Origin: an uncultured Alphaproteobacteria bacterium
GTDB taxonomy: Bacteria > Pseudomonadota > Alphaproteobacteria > CAAGCB01 > CAG-977
Direction: 5' to 3'
Assembly: GCA_944391535.1 (NCBI GenBank)
Contig: CALXTY010000002.1
Span: 1-57,359, forward strand
Length of the DNA stretch: 57,359 nt
Position numbers and translations under genes: made by a program. The notes below the pieces were generated by a model. That model was given only the letters and a program-made list of their open reading frames with translations, did not search any database and was not told where the DNA came from. This document shows, piece by piece, positions 20,644 to 57,359 of this stretch (positions are counted from its first letter, which is position 1; each line of letters starts with the position of its first letter).

Positions 20644-20770
20644 GAAAGGGAGGTCGGAGCAATACTTTAAATGCCGTTGAATTTGTCGTCGTGGATTCAT
20701 TTTTTTTTCAATGTCTGATTTTCTGCTGTCTTTTTTATAATTGCTTTGATATGCTGAACGGGCATTCGTA

Positions 20771-20967
20771 AACAAAACGGGTGCAGGGCGTCAGAAACCC
20801 TTTTAAACCTAGTCGCAGAAGCATATAGCGACTTTAAATATTTATGCCGATTTCTGTCTTATATGGGCGGATGTCGGCTGAATACGGCTATCTGCCCAAT
20901 AGGTCGAGCCGTTTTAGGTTTATACGGTTTCTGAACATCCGCCCACCTGATCGGTGGGTTTTTGTTT
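20771..20967 (+). ncRNA. copy 1 of a repeated structured RNA-like leader (candidate cis-regulatory element or sRNA) ending in a terminator-like hairpin
   Basis: Shares conserved blocks and helices with 33961-34165(-) and 56921-57119(+). Hairpin CCCACC-TGATC-GGTGGG plus TTTTTGTTT lies 27 nt before ATG 20994. Confidence 0.55.
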
Positions 20968-20993
20968 AATGTTTAACAAAGGAATGTTCAGGA

Positions 20994-21648
20994 ATGAAAA
21001 AAATAATTATTTCTTTTTTAGCGGGATTTTTCCTGTTTTGCGGCGTTGCGCGGGCGCAAACGGCTTCGGTGCAGGTTGTCGGCGATAAAACGGAAACCAA
21101 GTATCTTCAAGGTGTCTTGGGGATTGATGTTTCGGGGATCGGCGTGGATATCACGGACGGTCTGGATAACTTTGTCGAAGACGCTTATTCCGCGATAACT
21201 TTGTCCGCCGGTGTGAAAGTCAACAATCAAATCTCTCTTACGGGATTTTATCAGTTTTCCTCGGAAGAAGACAAAACAACATACGCTTATTTGGGATATG
21301 ATAATTACTTGTACGAAAAAAACAACAGGCAGTTTTAAAGCGTACGGCGTTGATGCCTCTGTTTATCTTCCGGTGTCTGAAAAAGTTGATTTTGTTGCTT
21401 CCGCAGGCGTGGGGTATTATGACGTTTCTGTTGATTTTAAAGATAGCTTCTCAGATGGCAGCTATGCTTGGGGAACCTATGAAGAAGATCATATCGGTTT
21501 GCGTTTCGGAATCGGAGCGGAAGTCAAACTGGCCGAGCATATCGCTTTGACGGGCAATGTGCGCTATGTCTTTTTGGATTATGACGATGATACCGATTAT
21601 ATCGAAAATCTGGCGGAATTCGGTCTGGGCGTCAGGTTTTATTTCTGA
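20994..21648 (+). pseudogene. small outer-membrane beta-barrel protein gene interrupted by a frameshift in an A7 tract (or phase-variable, or a sequencing error)
   Basis: ORFs 20994-21338 (signal peptide) and 21298-21648 (ends ...GLGVRFYF) overlap at A7 21316-21322. One extra A would give a continuous ~218-aa OMP-like protein. Confidence 0.6.
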
Positions 21649-32665: not shown

Positions 32666-32690
32666 TCGTCTGTTCCTCAAATGGATTAAA

Positions 32691-32715
32691 AGAGCCTCGA
32701 AAGAGGCTCTTTTTT
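32691..32715. terminator. bidirectional intrinsic terminator (groEL and the convergent Cys-rich gene)
   Basis: GAGCCTC-GAAA-GAGGCTC flanked by an A-run and T6. Confidence 0.8.
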
Positions 32716-32720
32716 ATGTA

Positions 32721-33176
32721 TTATACGCAACAACACCCCGATGATGTGGCGGCTGGTGAATACCCCGATTTGCAGGATACGCCTTCGCATCCGACAGGTA
32801 TGCAACAACACCCCGTGTCCGTCGCTTCCGCAGTTGATCCGGACAAACACGAAACGTCCGTGCAATTCGGTATCGCGTTTTCACCGTCGCAATAGGTCTT
32901 TTCGGGACAGACCAGACACAGATTGTCGGATATATACCGATCAATCGCGCAGGACAGACACGACCCGGTCGTTTTATCGCATTTTTGACAGTTTGCGTCA
33001 CAGTCAAATTCTTCGGGTGGTTTTACGATTTCCGCGGATCCTGTCGAAGTGGACAATTTAATGACGCTTTGATACGAACTGGTCGCGTTCATATTTCGTC
33101 CCAGTTTCAGAACCCTGCTTTGCGCCGGCGGGCTCAACAGCATTAAGGCGCAAACAATACAGATGCACTTTTTCAT
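32721..33176 (-). CDS. secreted cysteine-rich protein (151 aa), C-terminus ...GCCCV
   Basis: Start at ATG 33176 gives signal peptide MKKCICIVCALMLLSPPAQS. CxxC-rich mature part. Lies 11 nt downstream of the preceding Cys-rich gene. Confidence 0.6.
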   Translation of the reverse strand: MKKCICIVCALMLLSPPAQSRVLKLGRNMNATSSYQSVIKLSTSTGSAEIVKPPEEFDCDANCQKCDKTTGSCLSCAIDRYISDNLCLVCPEKTYCDGENAIPNCTDVSCLSGSTAEATDTGCCCIPVGCEGVSCKSGYSPAATSSGCCCV

Positions 33177-33187
33177 GATCGCCCGCC

Positions 33188-33934
33188 TTATTTGTTGATG
33201 CAACAACAGCCGTCGGACGACAACGTCATGCGGGACGGACACGAATTGACCGTGTTCTTTTTTGTCGGTTCGGGTTCGTCTTCGACACATTGTCCGTTCA
33301 CCGCTTTAAATCCGGAATAACAAGCGGTGCAGTAAGCGGGATTTCCGTTCGTGCACGATTTGCATGGTGCCCTGCATGGTTGGCAAATGGGATCTGTTGG
33401 ATTCATGTGAGAATAACCGTCCCGGCAGACGGGAAAAGTTGTCCCTCCCGGACACGTGGCGTTGGAAGGGCAAGACTGGCAGGAACCATTATATAAAAAA
33501 TATCCCGGTCTGCAGCTGGCGCATCTATTGCTACTGTCAACGCACGTTACGCAGGCCGGAGAACAGGGTCGGCAAGTCGTACCCTGCGGAAAGAAACCGT
33601 CCGGACAGGAAACGATTCGGTTCGTTCCGTCACAAGTCGCTCCCGCAGGGCAAGGAGCGCACTGATAGTAGGTGCTGGCGTAAAGCAAATAACCGGGATT
33701 GCAACGGACGCAGTTTTGTCCGTTTCCCACCGCGCAATTTTTATCCATACAATATACCCTGCTTCCCGAGACGGAAGAAAATTTATATCCGGCGCCGGTG
33801 CAAATTTCTGCCGGCGTTCGGGTTTCATCGCAGCCCACGGAAAAAGATCCGTCCGGCCCGCGACAGGATATTGCCAGACTGTCGGTCGGACTCAGCCATA
33901 AGGCGATTAAAATAAGAAAGAGTTTGATTTTCAT
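33188..33934 (-). CDS. secreted cysteine-rich protein with furin-like (FU/VSP-type) repeats, C-terminus ...GCCCINK
   Basis: Signal peptide, then 32 Cys by my count. Repeated C-x2-C-x2-GY(F/L)LY...C-x2-CP...ATC units (CVRCNPGYLLY..CAPCPAGATC; CASCRPGYFLYNGSCQSCPSNATC). Confidence 0.7.
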   Translation of the reverse strand: MKIKLFLILIALWLSPTDSLAISCRGPDGSFSVGCDETRTPAEICTGAGYKFSSVSGSRVYCMDKNCAVGNGQNCVRCNPGYLLYASTYYQCAPCPAGATCDGTNRIVSCPDGFFPQGTTCRPCSPACVTCVDSSNRCASCRPGYFLYNGSCQSCPSNATCPGGTTFPVCRDGYSHMNPTDPICQPCRAPCKSCTNGNPAYCTACYSGFKAVNGQCVEDEPEPTKKNTVNSCPSRMTLSSDGCCCINK

Positions 33935-33960
33935 TTGAACAATCCTTTGTTTTGTTGTTT

Positions 33961-34165
33961 AAACAAAAACCTACCCGAAAAGGTAGGCGGATGTTCGAAA
34001 ACCGTATACGTATTTACGGCTCGGCGGTTTCGCGCAAAGCCTTATAGCGCCGACATCCGCCCGTAAGACAGACAGAAATCGGCATAGATATTTACAGTCG
34101 CCATATGCATTGCGACTATACGTAAAAGGGTTTTCGAAGCCCTGAACCGTTGATTTAAACGGTCT
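33961..34165 (-). ncRNA. copy 2 of the repeated structured RNA-like leader
   Basis: The reverse complement aligns with copies 1 and 3. Compensatory TCGAAAACC/GGTTTTCGA helix. Hairpin CCTACC-TTTTC-GGGTAGG plus TTTTTGTTT lies 27 nt before ATG 33934. Confidence 0.55.
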
Positions 34166-34319
34166 GGAACAATTATATCAGGAACGTCCGTTGAATGCCA
34201 GATTTAACTCGTTGTTATGACAATTATATGAAATAAAAGAATTTTTTCGGGTTGCAATAAGTCGTCGGGCGTGTAGAGTAAAAGGTGAATTATGAATACA
34301 GTTTTTTAAGGAACAAGAA

Positions 34320-35177
34320 ATGTTAACGTTTTTGACCGGATTATCCATTGTGCTTTTATATGCCGTTCGTCCTTTTGTGTATAAGCCGGCCAGCCGTCAA
34401 TTTGACGCCGAAATTTCATCTTATTTTACGGCGCTATGGTGTTTTTTATTTATCCTTCCGACGATCCCGTTTTGTTTTAAGTATTTTTTTATAGACGGAC
34501 GTTTCGTTTTATGGCGTCCCGAAGCGATTACTTTTCCTCTTCTTAAAGGAATTTCTCTTTATTTTTTTATGAAATACAATCAGGAGGTGAATAAAGAAAG
34601 CACTTCCGGATCCGTTTTTTGGGGAGTGATCGGATTGGCTTTGGTCACCTTGATTTCGACGTTTGTTTTTCACGAACCGTTGGATTTTTCGAAACAGGCG
34701 ATGATTGTTTTGATCGGTATATTGGGGGCTTTGTTTTTTATTTTCGGCGAAGGTAAAAAGCTGAGCGCGAACGGGAAAAAAGCCTTTTTAGGGACGCTTT
34801 TTTTTGCTGTTTTAAACAATTTGTGCGACGTATTAAGCATACGTTACGCGAATTGGTACATTTTATATATGGTGCCGACGATCGGTATGTTGTTGTGCGC
34901 GATTAAACAAGTCGGGGGAAAGGTCGGCGCGAAACAGTTTTTGACGAAGCGTGATTTTATCATTGCGGGATCGCTTTACGCCGCTGGCGAAATGATTTTG
35001 ATCTTTTCGATGCAGTCTTTCTTTCCTGTTATCGTCGCCATTTTTTTAATTCGTCTGGCGCAAGGGATCGATTTGATTTTGGCCTACCATATTTCCAAAG
35101 AAGGTAAAGCGGGGGTACAATATTTCTTTGGAATATGCATAGTGGTTTTAGCGTATTTTTTCTTTTTCGGCGTTTAA
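34320..35177 (+). CDS. polytopic membrane protein, DMT/EamA-like (tentative)
   Basis: 285 aa with about 9-10 hydrophobic helices. No sharper motif recognised. Confidence 0.45.
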   Translation: MLTFLTGLSIVLLYAVRPFVYKPASRQFDAEISSYFTALWCFLFILPTIPFCFKYFFIDGRFVLWRPEAITFPLLKGISLYFFMKYNQEVNKESTSGSVFWGVIGLALVTLISTFVFHEPLDFSKQAMIVLIGILGALFFIFGEGKKLSANGKKAFLGTLFFAVLNNLCDVLSIRYANWYILYMVPTIGMLLCAIKQVGGKVGAKQFLTKRDFIIAGSLYAAGEMILIFSMQSFFPVIVAIFLIRLAQGIDLILAYHISKEGKAGVQYFFGICIVVLAYFFFFGV

Positions 35178-38298: not shown

Positions 38299-38970
38299 AT
38301 GTTTAAATTCCTCATCGTTATTTTATGTTTATCGCTTTTTCCTTGTGACGTTTTTTCAAGAGCCGTTAAGTTGGGCAGTAAGGCTGGTCAACAAAAAAAT
38401 TTGACTTTTTCATTACCTACGGCTTCGGTAAAAACATCCGGTATTTCCTGTTTTGAAAATGAAGACTGCGCCTATGATCAGGAATGTGTCGCGTTACAGT
38501 GTGTTAATGTTTGTAAAAGCAACGCGTGTCTTGACGGGACATATTGCGCTCCGGCAGGTAAAGATAAACCGCATCAGTATCAGTGCGCCGAATGCGTTGT
38601 GAATTCTCATTGTTCTGACGGTATGTTTTGTGATCGGGATTATACGTGTAAATATCCCGATCCGTGCGCCAATGCGGTTTGTTCTCCGGCGGCACCCCAT
38701 TGCTTGCCAAAACCGTATAAGTCTTTGCCCTATACTTGCGTACAGTGTACTCAAGACGATCATTGTCCGCCGGTGGCGGGTTTGACCAGACGTTGTGTTG
38801 ACGGGTATTGTCTGTTTAATGTTGAAGGCAACATTCCGACGCAACCGGCAGAGCAGGAAAACCCTTCTGTTCAGGCGGGACAACCCGTTCAGCAACAGCC
38901 TCCAGCAAAAGAATATTATGATGAAGATCTTTATCCGTATGAAGACGAATACGAAGATATGTCTTATTAA
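38299..38970 (+). CDS. secreted cysteine-rich protein with acidic Tyr/Glu/Asp-rich tail
   Basis: Signal peptide. Repeated ..C....DC......C....C.. modules. P/Q-rich linker, then EYYDEDLYPYEDEYEDMSY. Confidence 0.55.
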   Translation: MFKFLIVILCLSLFPCDVFSRAVKLGSKAGQQKNLTFSLPTASVKTSGISCFENEDCAYDQECVALQCVNVCKSNACLDGTYCAPAGKDKPHQYQCAECVVNSHCSDGMFCDRDYTCKYPDPCANAVCSPAAPHCLPKPYKSLPYTCVQCTQDDHCPPVAGLTRRCVDGYCLFNVEGNIPTQPAEQENPSVQAGQPVQQQPPAKEYYDEDLYPYEDEYEDMSY

Positions 38971-38974
38971 AAAA

Positions 38975-38997
38975 GCCCCGCTCAGGGGCTTTTTTTT
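38975..38997. terminator. bidirectional intrinsic terminator (Cys-rich gene and the convergent flgL)
   Basis: GCCCC-GCTCA-GGGGC flanked by an A-run and T-run. Confidence 0.8.
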
Positions 38998-41365
38998 AAA
39001 GGTAGTTCAATAAACTCAGTTGATTGAGTGTTGATAGAACAGAATAGGAAACTTTTAAGTTTTCGGCAGCTTGCAACAGCATGGTTGCCGCTTCGGTTTT
39101 ATCGACTTGCGTTAAAGAGGAAATATAAGTTTCCAAAGAGTTTTGCAACGTCGTTTGATTGTCGATGGTTGTTTTGACCAGATCCAGTTTGCTGATGACG
39201 GCGTATTGGATACTGGTGACATCTCCGTTTTTTTCTTTTGAATTGGCGGTCAATGCTTCGTCCAATAAATCCAACGCTTCGGAAACGCGTTTGGTCGCGC
39301 TGTCAACGTCTTCGGGATCCAGCATATTTCCCTGAGCTATGGACCCCAAAGCTCGAAAGACTTTTTCAAAGGCTCCGGAAGAGGCGTTAATATCATTAAT
39401 AACATTTGTCGTTTCACTTATACGGTAAGAAGAAGACAGTTGTCCGCCGTCATAATAAGTGCTGGTTTCAAAATTAGCGGACGTAAAGCTTTCTGTTGCG
39501 TCGTATTCAGGGAAATCTTCGGTTCTGACGATCAATTCCTTACCGTCATCGGAAACGCCCAAAACGGTATATAATCCGTTATAAGCTCCGTTTGTTCCGC
39601 CCATTTCGACCGTTGCTCCGACCGAATAGGTTTTGCAGATGGTGATTCCGTCACCGTTGGCGATCGGTTGACCGTTGAGCAAACTCATTTCTTCCGTCAC
39701 TTTTGTTTCATCAGAAAACTTGATAGTGCGTCCGTCTTCGGAAACGGAATCGACAATATACATTTTATCGTTGCCGTCCGCACCTTTGATAATCAGACAG
39801 TCGCCTTTTTTATAGGAGGAGAAAGCACCTTTTACAGTAGCGGACATGGTATTTTGATTGACGCTGAAGCTGATGTCTCCGGTTTGCAAAGCACTGCCTT
39901 TCATACTGGAAGTGACAAACCCTCCGATATCGGAGTGTGTTTCGATTACCAGAGGCACATTTGTTAAATTGGTGTCAGGTATGGGCGTGCTGGTCGAAAT
40001 GTCGATTTTTGAACCGTCCGGCGAAACCGATTTAACATAGAGAGTGTATTCATTATTGGCGGCATCGGTAAGGGTGACGGTTTGTCCGCCTTTTAATTCT
40101 GAAAACGTTCCGGCGGGACCTGTCAGCGTATTGTTGGCCGTATCAACGGTTAAAGCGGAAGGACAATCGATTGTTTCAATAACGATGCCGACATTTTTTT
40201 CGGCCGTAATCGTTCCGACTTGCGTGCTTTGCTGAATATTGATATTGATCGTGTCGTCCGTCAACCGTTCGACTTTGATTGTTTCGTTAACGACATTTTC
40301 TTCAAAGATGATGGTCGATCCGTCATCGGATATTTCTTTGACGGTGAGGTAACCGTTATTTTTATCCGTACCGTTGATCAGGACTTTTTCGCCGACTCTC
40401 AAGTTTGAAAAGGAAGCGGGTCTTCCTTGTAAAGAGTTTGTCGTAATGCCGGTGGTCAGGTCTGTTGAAGACATAAAGACCCAACTGCCTTTAGTCAAAG
40501 AAACATTTGAGGAATCGGCGATTGTTTCATCGGTGACGGGTTCGACAAAAGTCAGGGTTGAACCGTCATCTGAAACGGATTGCACGGTCAGTGTTTGATT
40601 GTTTCCTCCGGTTCCCTGAACGATGATCTGATCTCCTGCGGAGATTCCGTTAAACGTGTCCGGATTGGCGGATAAGGAATTGGTTGCGGCATCGAAAGTC
40701 ATTTGATTGGTCGCCGATCCGTGATAGACGACCGTTTTCGGATCCAAGGTTTGGAATTCCTGTTTAATGGTCACGCCGCCCAGAGTGTCCGCGGAAGTGG
40801 ACATTTGAGAAAGCGAAGCGGAGTAACTGGTCGGATACGTCAGGACGTCACCGTCATAGACGGCTTGGAATTCTTCCAAAGTGGTATAGGGGAAATTGAC
40901 CGGAGGCGTTGTTGTTTTTCCTCCGCCGAAGACATAGTTTCCGTCAACTTCCGTATTTAAGTAATACGCGATTAAGGACATGGCTTCGAAGGCGGCTTCC
41001 TGCACGTTTTGCAACGCCAGCAATTCTTCTTCGGTGGGATTTTCGGACATGGCGGCCAGATCGTTGGCAAAAAATTCACGCACTTGGGAACGTACGTCCG
41101 TTAAAGCCGATCGGATACCGTCAATCGAGGTTTGTTGAGATTCCAAAACGACTTGAGTAATGGCATTTGTTTCCAGATACTTTGACGTAACGGCCTGTTC
41201 GTTTTGCAAAGACAACAGCCGATAAGTCGACAAACCGTATTTATCATAGGAATCATATCGATTTCCCGTTGAAGCCTGATAAGAAATATCGGTCATTGCG
41301 AGCTTTTGTTTTGTCATTTGAGACATATACAAGTTGTAAGTAGCTGTTGTGGGGACGCGTGTCAT
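38996..41365 (-). CDS. flgL: flagellar hook-associated protein 3 (FlgL), greatly expanded (789 aa)
   Basis: Flagellin-like N-terminal and C-terminal helices (N: TTATYNLYMSQMTKQKLAMTDISYQASTG; C: ..LLQAAENLKVSYSVLSTLNQLSLLNYL). Immediately downstream of flgK. Confidence 0.75.
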   Translation of the reverse strand: MTRVPTTATYNLYMSQMTKQKLAMTDISYQASTGNRYDSYDKYGLSTYRLLSLQNEQAVTSKYLETNAITQVVLESQQTSIDGIRSALTDVRSQVREFFANDLAAMSENPTEEELLALQNVQEAAFEAMSLIAYYLNTEVDGNYVFGGGKTTTPPVNFPYTTLEEFQAVYDGDVLTYPTSYSASLSQMSTSADTLGGVTIKQEFQTLDPKTVVYHGSATNQMTFDAATNSLSANPDTFNGISAGDQIIVQGTGGNNQTLTVQSVSDDGSTLTFVEPVTDETIADSSNVSLTKGSWVFMSSTDLTTGITTNSLQGRPASFSNLRVGEKVLINGTDKNNGYLTVKEISDDGSTIIFEENVVNETIKVERLTDDTININIQQSTQVGTITAEKNVGIVIETIDCPSALTVDTANNTLTGPAGTFSELKGGQTVTLTDAANNEYTLYVKSVSPDGSKIDISTSTPIPDTNLTNVPLVIETHSDIGGFVTSSMKGSALQTGDISFSVNQNTMSATVKGAFSSYKKGDCLIIKGADGNDKMYIVDSVSEDGRTIKFSDETKVTEEMSLLNGQPIANGDGITICKTYSVGATVEMGGTNGAYNGLYTVLGVSDDGKELIVRTEDFPEYDATESFTSANFETSTYYDGGQLSSSYRISETTNVINDINASSGAFEKVFRALGSIAQGNMLDPEDVDSATKRVSEALDLLDEALTANSKEKNGDVTSIQYAVISKLDLVKTTIDNQTTLQNSLETYISSLTQVDKTEAATMLLQAAENLKVSYSVLSTLNQLSLLNYL

Positions 41366-56920: not shown

Positions 56921-57119
56921 CGGTTTAAATCAACCGCTCAGGGCGTCAGAAACCCTTTCACGTGTAGTCGCAATGCATAGGGCGACTTTAAATAATTATG
57001 CCGATTTCTGTCTGACGGGCGGATGTCGGCGTTATAAGGCTTTGCGCGAAATCGCCGAGCCGTAAATACGTGTACGGTTTCTGAACATCCGCCTACCTTT
57101 GTTGGGTAGGTTTTTGTTT
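56921..57119 (+). ncRNA. copy 3 of the repeated structured RNA-like leader
   Basis: Aligns with copies 1 and 2. Hairpin CCTACC-TTTGTT-GGGTAGG plus TTTTTGTTT lies 27 nt before ATG 57147. Confidence 0.55.
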
Positions 57120-57146
57120 AACCTAAACAAAAAGGATTGTTCAGAG

Positions 57147-57359
57147 ATGAAAAAATCAATAAAACTTATCAGCGTTTTTACGCTTCTTCTCCTTTCTTTC
57201 TGTCCGACAGACAGTCTGGCAATATCCTGTCACGGGCCGGACGGATCTTTTTCCGTGGGCTGCGATGAAACCCGAACGCCGACAGAAATTTGCACCGGCG
57301 CCGGATATAAATTTTCTTCCGTCTCGGGAAGCAGGGTATATTGTATGGATAAAAATTGC
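57147..57359 (+). CDS. secreted furin-like Cys-rich repeat protein, paralog of 33188-33934 (3' end outside window)
   Basis: Open frame from ATG 57147 to the window end: MKKSIKLISVFTLLLLSFCPTDSLAISCHGPDGSFSVGCDETRTPTEICTGAGYKFSSVSGSRVYCMDKNC. The mature part is nearly identical to the other copy. Confidence 0.75.
   Translation, partial: MKKSIKLISVFTLLLLSFCPTDSLAISCHGPDGSFSVGCDETRTPTEICTGAGYKFSSVSGSRVYCMDKNC

What the first reader, a model, noticed from the sequence alone, without database searches (positions are those of the whole stretch)
32721..33934. Tandem pair of secreted, eukaryote-like furin/VSP-type cysteine-rich repeat proteins
Two consecutive minus-strand genes, 11 nt apart, encode signal-peptide proteins very rich in Cys; I counted 32 Cys in the 248-aa product. 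The larger one has repeated units of the form C-x2-C-x2-GY(F/L)LY-x(3-6)-C-x2-CP-x3-ATC. This spacing is characteristic of furin-like (FU) repeats found in Giardia VSPs, ciliate surface antigens and animal receptors, and it is uncommon in bacteria. At least one more paralog starts at 57147. In a possibly host-associated bacterium these could be surface or secreted mimics of host proteins, or adhesins.
Basis: partly seen in the sequence, partly recalled or inferred. Interest (0 to 1): 0.65.

Follow-up and report, generated by a model that had tools for sequence, protein, structure and literature searches.

The report
Variable cysteine-rich secreted protein cassette
Two adjacent genes of an uncultured bird-gut alphaproteobacterium encode exported, disulfide-rich proteins built from animal/protist-type furin-like repeats; they belong to an undescribed, multi-copy two-gene cassette whose middle part evolves fast and is swapped between copies, as expected of an exposed surface or secreted protein.

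Summary
Gene A (33188-33934, minus strand) gives 248 aa with 32 Cys. Gene B (32721-33176) gives 151 aa with 21 Cys. The gap is 11 nt, and a paralog starts at 57147.

A is furin-like/VSP-type. Its own Pfam VSP score (23.4 bits) is below the 31.4-bit cut-off, but close relatives pass. Its best hits outside the family are giant eukaryotic Furin-like_2 proteins. Its AF2 model (pLDDT 84) best matches R-spondin Fu1-Fu2.

New here: A and B form a self-contained unit (promoter-like site, structured about 220-nt leader with terminator, A, B, terminator). This unit recurs several times per genome in uncultured gut Alphaproteobacteria.

- Every A ends in the invariant tail CPSRM(T/K)LSxDGCCC(I/V)NK.
- Every B carries an AVKLGR motif, one furin-like unit and two GCCC hairpins.
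- The A body evolves near neutrality (dN/dS 1.1-1.3), against 0.06 for the tail and 0.13 for B.
- Synonymous divergence jumps at the body/tail border in five comparisons, so modules recombine.

Best reading (inferred): an exposed, variable coat or adhesin protein that docks through its tail to partner B. Localisation, expression and the tail's role are untested. Host mimicry and recent transfer from a eukaryote are not supported.

The parts
34172..34201 (-). Promoter-like site (CTGGCA-18-TATAAT with TG) just upstream of the leader
   Evidence: Consensus scan, 10/12 matches. A pattern match only.
33935..34160 (-). Conserved structured 5' leader of the cassette; it ends in a terminator-like hairpin (33969-33988) plus a U-run, then the RBS AAAGGA
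   Evidence: 11-sequence alignment, 80% mean column identity. RNAalifold gives 60 pairs, 15 of them with compensatory changes. Hairpin found. Only a sub-threshold Rfam match, sRNA-Xcc1 at 33.3 bits against a cut-off of 53.
33188..33934 (-). Gene A: 248-aa exported Cys-rich protein. Signal peptide residues 1-21, head 22-66, furin-like repeat body 67-218, linker 219-229, invariant tail 230-248.
   Evidence: 55 homologues. AF2 pLDDT 83.7. Foldseek top hits are R-spondin Fu1-Fu2.
33632..33712 (-). Full furin-like unit 1 of A (residues 75-101, CVRCNPGYLLYASTYYQCAPCPAGATC)
   Evidence: Regex check. Lies within the Pfam VSP match 69-157.
33452..33523 (-). Full furin-like unit 2 of A (residues 138-161, CASCRPGYFLYNGSCQSCPSNATC)
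   Evidence: Regex check. This unit aligns with B residues 58-100 by hhalign: probability 95.4%, E 1.8e-8.
33191..33247 (-). Invariant C-terminal tail of A: NSCPSRMTLSSDGCCCINK
   Evidence: Invariant columns in 18 sequences. Many synonymous differences between copies. dN/dS 0.03-0.08. AF2 predicts a beta-hairpin, strands 236-238 and 244-246.
32721..33176 (-). Gene B: 151-aa exported conserved partner. Signal peptide 1-20, (A/R)VLKLGRN motif 21-28, low-confidence linker, one furin-like unit 58-105, two GCCC beta-hairpins 110-151.
   Evidence: 17 homologues, 65% mean identity, 34 invariant columns. AF2 C-terminal half pLDDT 83-87. Follows A at an 11-nt gap here, in L010-L012, L017, L018, L020 and L021 and in L014, where B was not called but reads in frame 2; it directly follows A in L003 and L005-L009.
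32688..32713 (.). Bidirectional terminator hairpin between the stop of B and the stop of groEL
   Evidence: AAAAGAGCCTC-GAAA-GAGGCTCTTTT, 11 pairs.
56921..57146 (+). Second copy of the leader
57147..57359 (+). Paralogous gene A2 (first 71 codons; runs off the window)
   Evidence: Mosaic identity to gene A.
20768..20993 (+). Third copy of the leader, in front of an outer-membrane beta-barrel gene (20994-21648, split by a frameshift)
   Evidence: Pfam OMP_b-brl 41.1 bits against a cut-off of 28.7.

Best explanation
The stretch is one copy of an undescribed two-gene cassette of uncultured gut Alphaproteobacteria.

Shown:
- It is a self-contained transcription unit: promoter-like site, structured leader of about 220 nt ending in a terminator hairpin before the RBS, gene A, gene B 11 nt later, then a terminator.
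- A and B both have Sec-type signal peptides.
- A is an elongated disulfide-rich protein. It has a variable head, two to three furin-like (FU/VSP-type) repeats and an invariant 19-residue tail, CPSRM(T/K)LSxDGCCC(I/V)NK.
- B is a conserved small protein with an AVKLGR motif, one furin-like unit and two GCCC hairpins.
- Cassettes occur several times per genome, at unrelated places.
- The A body evolves near neutrality, while the tail and B are under strong purifying selection.
- Leader plus signal peptide, body, and tail plus B have different histories, so modules are exchanged by recombination.

Inferred:
- After Sec export and oxidative folding, A is displayed outside the cell, as a coat or adhesin-like protein or as a released factor. 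There its body is under diversifying pressure from host immunity, phages or other cells.
- The invariant tail is the constant docking piece. It joins each variable A to the constant partner B, probably through its cysteines, or to another envelope component.
- The shared leader switches all cassettes, together with at least one outer-membrane protein gene, in response to one unknown signal, by transcription termination and/or RBS masking.
For: Family and pairing:
- 55 A homologues and 20 B homologues, none with a descriptive name; the only names on record are 'hypothetical protein'.
- A is followed by B in the window, L003, L005-L012, L014, L017, L018, L020 and L021, among otherwise unrelated housekeeping genes.
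- The strict tail pattern occurs in only 3 of the species-representative genomes scanned. All three are gut Alphaproteobacteria MAGs with 3 copies each.
- The window holds 2 copies.
- The window's DNA is found in chicken and bird gut metagenomes.

Fold:
- AF2 pLDDT 83.7. Foldseek top hits are R-spondin Fu1-Fu2, probability 0.99-1.0.
- VSP hits in 13 of 18 members.
- phmmer hits to eukaryotic Furin-like_2 giants.

Selection (window A against L017):
- Body: dS 0.11, dN 0.138, ratio 1.26.
- Tail: dS 0.80, ratio 0.06.
- B Cys part: dS 0.83, ratio 0.13.
- The nonsynonymous:synonymous ratio of the body differs from B (p = 3e-5) and from the tail (p = 0.004).

Recombination:
- Synonymous divergence jumps at the body/tail border in five comparisons, in both directions, p = 5e-5 to 6e-3.
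- The sliding identity profile is mosaic.
- An identical A+B pair sits in two different downstream contexts.

Tail under peptide-level selection: many synonymous codon differences.

Envelope link:
- The same leader precedes an OMP_b-brl gene.
- FlgK is present, so the organism is a flagellated diderm.

Leader structure: 15 covarying pairs.
Against: - There is no direct evidence of expression or location. No RNA run holds the gene.
- No route across the outer membrane is known for these proteins.
- dN/dS of the body is about 1, not significantly above 1 (p = 0.6), and it is measurable only in two low-divergence pairs. Relaxed constraint would give the same number.
- An HMM of B's GCCC modules does not find the A tail above shuffled controls, so the tail is not shown to be homologous to B's modules. 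The tail-B contact is pure inference.
- A tail-focused search (208-663 aa) found only Cys-rich furin-like proteins. The tail is therefore not shown to be a general sorting signal.
- Metagenome contigs that look like divergent alleles of A could come from paralogs.
Confidence: 0.5

Rival explanations
1. Structural envelope lattice. A and B are constant building blocks of a disulfide-cross-linked outer-envelope layer, working like the chlamydial cysteine-rich OmcA/OmcB pair. The variation in A is relaxed constraint, not adaptive variation.
For: Two adjacent Cys-rich exported proteins are co-transcribed and tightly coupled. They share a leader with an outer-membrane protein gene. Mature Cys counts are mostly even, with odd counts in the xCC-tail variants, which is compatible with intermolecular disulfides. 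The body's dN/dS is not significantly above 1.
Against: There are several cassettes per genome with unrelated heads. Modules are exchanged repeatedly. A purely structural component would not be expected to vary this much. No lipobox or membrane anchor is present.
Confidence: 0.15
2. Periplasmic thiol, metal or redox protein. The many cysteines, above all the CCC clusters, bind metal ions or buffer redox state, and the leader senses a metal.
For: Extreme Cys content. The tail first Cys is dispensable in three relatives, which leaves an odd Cys count, so some thiols may be free. A riboswitch-like leader of unknown ligand is present.
Against: The Cys spacing and the confident AF2 model fit a disulfide-bonded furin-like fold. 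Near-neutral evolution and module swapping of the body are not expected of a periplasmic housekeeping protein. No match to any metal-binding family or known metal riboswitch was found.
Confidence: 0.1
3. Secreted mimic of host furin-repeat ligands. A acts on host receptors, for example in the manner of R-spondin or EGF-family proteins.
For: The best structural matches are R-spondin Fu1-Fu2. The bacterium lives in the gut. A is exported.
Against: The similarity is to the generic fold only: 24-29% identity, E about 1e-3, low TM-scores. The heads and loops vary freely between copies, which is unlike a ligand tuned to one conserved receptor. GC3 is native-like and the family has diversified within the lineage.
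Confidence: 0.07
4. Bacteriocin or toxin (A) with an immunity or helper protein (B).
For: A small secreted variable protein is followed by a small conserved gene.
Against: B itself has a signal peptide and is conserved while A varies, which is the opposite of toxin-immunity co-variation. The variable part of A is N-terminal and the C-terminus is constant. No toxin, phage or defence-related domain was found.
Confidence: 0.03

Closest known systems
Giardia variant-specific surface proteins (Pfam VSP, PF03302) and related high-cysteine proteins
   Same: CxxC-rich furin-like repeats with GY-type motifs. A variable N-terminal ectodomain and an invariant C-terminal end. A multi-copy family in a gut-lumen organism. 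13 of 18 family members hit the VSP model, and 2 of the 10 scored individually pass its cut-off.
   Different: This copy scores 23.4 bits, below the 31.4-bit cut-off. It has no transmembrane helix and no CRGKA end. The protein is much shorter (2-3 repeats). It uses a bacterial Sec signal, has an obligate partner gene B, and sits in an operon with an RNA leader. Each copy has its own promoter-like region, and no switching has been shown.
Furin-like (FU) repeats of R-spondins, ErbB/insulin-receptor ectodomains and giant protist Furin-like_2 proteins (PF00757, PF15913, PF14843)
   Same: The same disulfide-rich repeat fold by Foldseek: R-spondin Fu1-Fu2, probability 0.99-1.0. The best sequence hits outside the family carry Furin-like_2, VSP and GF_recep_IV, and one lies among eukaryotic genes.
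   Different: P0001 has no hit to these Pfam models, and relatives reach only about 18 bits against a cut-off of 28. E-values in the structure search are about 1e-3 with low TM-scores. There are no accompanying eukaryotic domains.
Chlamydial cysteine-rich envelope pair OmcA/OmcB (from general knowledge; not tested here)
   Same: Two adjacent genes for exported, Cys-rich envelope proteins that are thought to be cross-linked by disulfides.
   Different: No sequence or fold relation was sought or found. OmcA is a lipoprotein, whereas A and B have no lipobox. The chlamydial pair is single-copy and not modular.
Bacterial variable surface-protein families that diversify by recombination (for example Mycoplasma Vsa/Vlp, Borrelia Vmp/VlsE, Neisseria pilE/pilS; from general knowledge)
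   Same: Multi-copy genes with conserved ends and a variable middle. Mosaic histories indicate segment exchange.
   Different: No silent cassettes, invertible promoters or repeat-tract switches were seen. Every copy has its own leader and RBS. The proteins are unrelated.
sRNA-Xcc1 (Rfam RF02221), for the leader only
   Same: The 3' half of the leader (33977-34062) matches the whole model: an outer helix enclosing two hairpins, E 4e-4 in a 431-base search.
   Different: 33.3 bits against a cut-off of 53. The leader is about 220 nt with additional covarying helices and a terminator, and it is cis-located before coding genes.

Membership tests
Pfam VSP (PF03302) | HMM score at or above the gathering cut-off (31.4 bits) | tested here: not met
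   P0001 scores 23.4 bits, E 3.3e-5. Relatives P0004 (32.6) and P0005 (46.7) pass; P0003, P0006, P0008, P0012, P0017 and P0111 do not.
Pfam VSP (PF03302) | C-terminal transmembrane helix followed by the conserved cytoplasmic CRGKA end | tested here: not met
   A ends ...EPTKKNTVNSCPSRMTLSSDGCCCINK, with no hydrophobic segment.
Pfam VSP (PF03302) | Frequent CxxC motifs in a Cys-rich (over 10%) extracellular region | tested here: met
   9 CxxC and 12.9% Cys.
Furin-like repeat (PF00757 / PF15913 / SMART FU) | Significant match to a furin-like repeat model | tested here: not met
   P0001 has no hit even at E up to 10. Relatives score 17.7-18.1 bits against a cut-off of 28. SMART FU was not available.
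Furin-like repeat (PF00757 / PF15913 / SMART FU) | Furin-like disulfide-rich beta-hairpin repeat fold | tested here: inconclusive
   AF2 pLDDT 83.7. The top PDB matches are R-spondin Fu1-Fu2 with probability 0.99-1.0, but E is about 1e-3 and TM-scores are 0.2-0.4. TNFR and laminin-EGF modules follow closely.
Sec-exported protein (signal peptidase I substrate) | Basic n-region, hydrophobic h-region, small residues at -3/-1 | tested here: met
   Both proteins, judged by inspection and hydropathy and conserved in homologues. No dedicated predictor was available.
Bacterial lipoprotein | Lipobox [LVI][ASTVI][GAS]C at the end of the signal peptide | tested here: not met
   A has SLA|ISC, and homologues have GQA|YLC and SHA|RLC. 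B has no Cys after its signal peptide until residue 59.
Known C-terminal sorting signals (PEP-CTERM, LPXTG, GlyGly-CTERM, MYXO-CTERM, T9SS CTD) | Match to an NCBIfam or Pfam sorting-domain model; a motif followed by a transmembrane helix and a basic tail | tested here: not met
   NCBIfam gives no hit at E up to 10. The tail has no hydrophobic helix. The tail was found only on Cys-rich furin-like proteins.
Sulfatase-type formylglycine motif ((C/S)xPxR) | Invariant C/S-x-P-x-R | tested here: not met
   SCPSR fits SxPxR in this copy only. The Ser is Thr or Asn, and the Arg is His or Glu, in relatives (NTCPSRM, SSCPSHM, DNCPAEL).
Cis-regulatory structured RNA leader (riboswitch or attenuator class) | Conserved secondary structure with covariation, ending in a terminator and/or RBS-sequestering element upstream of the regulated gene | tested here: met
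   60 pairs, 15 of them compensatory, with a terminator hairpin, U-run and RBS. The ligand or signal is unknown. No Rfam family reaches its cut-off.

The most novel reading that the evidence does not exclude
Uncultured gut Alphaproteobacteria possess a bacterial counterpart of protozoan VSP coats. Many self-contained cassettes each encode a furin-repeat surface protein whose head and body are shuffled between cassettes by recombination. An invariant Cys-Cys-Cys tail locks whichever variant is made onto one conserved partner protein (B) by disulfide exchange. A single new riboswitch-like leader gates all cassettes together with outer-membrane protein genes.
Probability: 0.2. Interest if true: 0.8.

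Novelty: new variant of a known kind. Interest (0 to 1): 0.6.

Why it matters
Furin-like/VSP-type cysteine repeats are a hallmark of eukaryotic surface and signalling proteins. Here they form the variable part of a lineage-specific, multi-copy, recombining cassette in gut bacteria that have never been cultured.

If these proteins are exposed, they are probably the main interface of these bacteria with host immunity, phages or partner cells. They would then be a convergent or anciently shared solution with the protease-resistant coats of gut protists.

The invariant tail and partner B define a possible new protein-docking or display mechanism. The shared leader is a candidate new regulatory RNA class. 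Both can be tested with recombinant protein and reporter assays, without culturing the organism.

Tried and rejected
- Exact look-up of P0001's contig found nothing on record.
- NCBIfam, PHROGs and PDB sequence searches gave no meaningful hit.
- Foldseek of B against the PDB found nothing with E below 0.3.
- Foldseek of A against viral structures found only Cys-rich proteins of eukaryotic viruses and no phage link.
- Homology of the A tail to B's GCCC modules: an HMM built from the B modules scored 4.1 bits or less on A proteins, while shuffled controls reached 10.3 bits. Rejected as unsupported.
- Tail as a general sorting signal: the tail-region search found only 6 Cys-rich proteins. Not supported.
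- Sulfatase SxPxR motif: rejected because it is not conserved in relatives.
- CaaX-like prenylation end (CINK, CCCV): rejected because the sequences are non-canonical and the proteins are Sec-exported.
- Lipoprotein: rejected because there is no lipobox.
- Recent transfer from a eukaryote: GC3 is 0.54, within the range of window genes (0.38-0.59), and the GC excess lies in codon position 2, so it reflects amino-acid composition. An ancient transfer cannot be excluded.
- Expression data: no RNA run holds the gene.
- Strain-level hypervariability from metagenome contigs: the A body shows 7-10% divergence against 1% or less in most flanks. The contigs end inside the cassette, so paralogs cannot be told from alleles. 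Left as suggestive only.
- The preprint on cysteine-rich repeats and horizontal transfer (10.64898/2026.06.07.730663) concerns other repeats and does not mention furin or VSP.
- Assignment to order Rs-D84 / Ca. Enterousia: not made. PMC12306168 reports that this order lacks flagella, whereas the window encodes FlgK.
Full report
**Observation**

Gene A (33188-33934, minus strand) encodes 248 aa with 32 Cys. Gene B starts at the ATG at 33176, 11 nt after A's stop, and encodes 151 aa with 21 Cys. All homologues use that start. Cys makes up 12.9% of A, against a median of 1.26% for the 49 long ORFs of the window.

Both N-termini have two basic residues, a strongly hydrophobic 10-residue core and small residues at -3/-1. 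Neither has a lipobox. A contains two full units of the type C-x2-C-x2-GY(L/F)LY-x3-6-C-x2-CP-x2-ATC (residues 75-101 and 138-161), one partial unit, and 9 CxxC motifs. A paralog begins at 57147 and runs off the window.

**What the repeats are**

Evidence from sequence models:
- Pfam gives only a sub-threshold VSP hit for this copy: 23.4 bits against a cut-off of 31.4, E 3.3e-5.
- NCBIfam gives nothing.
- 13 of 18 aligned relatives hit VSP. P0004 (78% identical) and P0005 (63% identical) pass the cut-off.

Evidence from wider searches and structure:
- phmmer against 1.84 billion cluster representatives finds 890 hits with E below 1e-3. Outside the family these are giant multi-repeat proteins carrying Furin-like_2, VSP and GF_recep_IV.
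- The best of these (3955 aa) lies between genes for a protein kinase, Rpn13 and a BTB protein, so it is in a eukaryote.
- The AF2 model of A is confident (pLDDT 83.7). Its best PDB matches are R-spondin Fu1-Fu2 (probability 0.99-1.0, E about 1e-3), followed by TNFR and laminin-EGF modules.

A is therefore a furin-like/VSP-type repeat protein by fold and by family context. Formal Pfam membership is not met for this copy. B shares one furin-like unit with A (hhalign 95%, E 1.8e-8). Otherwise it has no Pfam or NCBIfam match and no significant match among solved structures.

**The cassette**

All 18 aligned A relatives end in a nearly invariant tail, (N/S)(S/T)CPSRM(T/K)LSxDGCCC(I/V)NK. Their heads are of several unrelated kinds. 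More distant members keep CP..M....G.CC..K but may lack the first Cys of the triplet.

In every locus that has downstream DNA, A is followed at once by a B homologue. This holds for L003, L005-L012, L014, L017, L018, L020 and L021. B is well conserved: 65% mean identity and 34 invariant columns. It has an AVKLGR motif after the signal peptide and two GCCC(I/V) motifs, which AF2 folds as beta-hairpins.

A divergent pair keeps the same logic. Its A' has the tail CPAELTLSADQCCCEKK, and its 338-aa B' has AKAVKLGR and one CCC. The neighbouring genes are unrelated housekeeping genes.

The strict tail pattern occurs in only three species-representative genomes. All are uncultured gut Alphaproteobacteria with three copies each. 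The window's DNA is found in chicken and bird gut metagenomes. The window also encodes FlgK, so the organism is a flagellated diderm.

**Transcription unit**

- A promoter-like site lies at 34172-34201.
- It is followed by a leader of about 220 nt that is conserved across paralogs and species. RNAalifold gives 60 pairs, 15 of them with compensatory changes. The leader ends in a hairpin plus U-run (33969-33988) just before the RBS.
- Rfam has no family at threshold. The nearest is sRNA-Xcc1, at 33.3 bits against 53.
- A bidirectional terminator lies between B and groEL.
- The window holds three leader copies. The third precedes an outer-membrane beta-barrel gene.
- Earlier notes of this scan treat the leader as a finding of its own. 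I checked only its presence, its covariation and the outer-membrane protein link.

**Evolution**

Window A against the cassette in L017:

| Part | dS | dN | dN/dS |
|---|---|---|---|
| Furin-like body | 0.11 | 0.138 | 1.26 |
| Tail | 0.80 | 0.046 | 0.06 |
| Signal peptide | 0.95 | 0.437 | 0.46 |
| B Cys part | 0.83 | 0.107 | 0.13 |

- Against L021 the body's dN/dS is 1.09.
- The nonsynonymous:synonymous ratio of the body differs from that of B (p = 3e-5) and from that of the tail (p = 0.004). It is not significantly above 1 (p = 0.6).
- Synonymous divergence jumps at the body/tail border in five comparisons, in both directions:
  - window vs L017 and window vs L021: the body is close and the tail is far.
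  - L001 vs L010: body 0.02, tail 0.57.
  - L009 vs L011: body 1.45, tail plus B 0.1-0.2.
  - L002 vs L003 (the same MAG): body 2.1, tail 0.09.
  - p values range from 5e-5 to 6e-3.
- A sliding identity profile shows the same mosaic. The window's signal-peptide region is 96% identical to L020, but its body is 90-100% identical to L017. The two copies in the window share a 97-100% identical head behind signal peptides that are only 61-63% identical.
- The tail's codons differ at many synonymous sites, so selection acts on the peptide, not the DNA.
- An identical A+B pair sits in two different downstream contexts.
- In metagenome contigs, the leader and the tail/B junction are many times deeper than the flanks. 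This is consistent with multiple copies, although depths are summed over all organisms in the sample.

**Interpretation**

Shown: an exported, disulfide-rich, modular protein pair in a multi-copy cassette. The cassette has a fast-evolving, exchangeable body, a strictly conserved tail and partner, and a shared structured leader that also precedes an outer-membrane protein gene.

Inferred: A is exposed, on the surface or released. The tail docks it to B or to the envelope. The leader co-regulates the set.

Points against or still open:
- There are no expression or localisation data.
- An HMM of B's modules does not recognise the tail.
- The tail was not found on unrelated passenger proteins.
- Cys parity hints that not all tail cysteines are in intramolecular bonds, but it proves nothing. 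Counts are even in 23 of 24 CCC-tail proteins and odd in 3 of 3 xCC-tail proteins.
- Nothing points to recent acquisition from a eukaryote or to a phage link.

**Novelty**

The repeat type is known. The cassette architecture, the tail, partner B and the leader are not in Pfam, NCBIfam, Rfam or the papers searched. Earlier AI notes of this scan describe similar cassettes in other gut alphaproteobacterial genomes. They are leads that agree with this reading, not independent evidence.

Noticed in passing
window 20994-21648 (+): The outer-membrane beta-barrel gene behind the third leader copy is split into two overlapping frames at an A7 run (21316-21322). This could be a phase-variable homopolymer, a pseudogene or an assembly error.
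   Followed up: partly
window 38299-38970 (+): A third secreted-looking Cys-rich protein (223 aa, 9.9% Cys) with no Pfam match lies next to a 404-aa protein that also has no Pfam match. It is not related to the A/B cassette by the checks made here.
   Followed up: partly
L017 361-1616 and L018 330-1585: An identical A protein (P0003) with a near-identical B lies in front of different downstream genes in two samples: an RMMBL-type hydrolase in one and an aminotransferase in the other. The cassette, or its surroundings, has moved.
   Followed up: partly
L010 6947-8460 (-) and L001 5975-6475 (-): A divergent cassette type. A 161-aa A' has the tail CPAELTLSADQCCCEKK and sits behind the same leader. 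It is followed by a 338-aa B' that starts like B (AKAVKLGR) and then carries extra furin-like repeats.
   Followed up: partly
L014 11119-13278 (-): A 719-aa protein with some 16 tandem acidic repeats (EEAVEYEYVEAPAAEAP...) and no Pfam hit lies directly downstream of a cassette.
   Followed up: no
window 34320-35177 (+): A 285-aa multi-pass membrane protein without a Pfam match lies next to the cassette. One metagenome strain shows 5% divergence here (21 differences in 402 bases), against 1% or less in most neighbouring genes.
   Followed up: no
window 38996-41365 (-): The 789-aa FlgL-like protein (weak Flagellin_C match) gives a Pfam Phage_attach hit (36.8 bits, above the 26-bit cut-off) in its central repeat region.
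   Followed up: no
window 33977-34062 (-): The 3' half of the leader matches the whole Rfam sRNA-Xcc1 model below threshold (33.3 bits against 53, E 4e-4 in a 431-base search). The two RNAs may be distantly related.
   Followed up: partly
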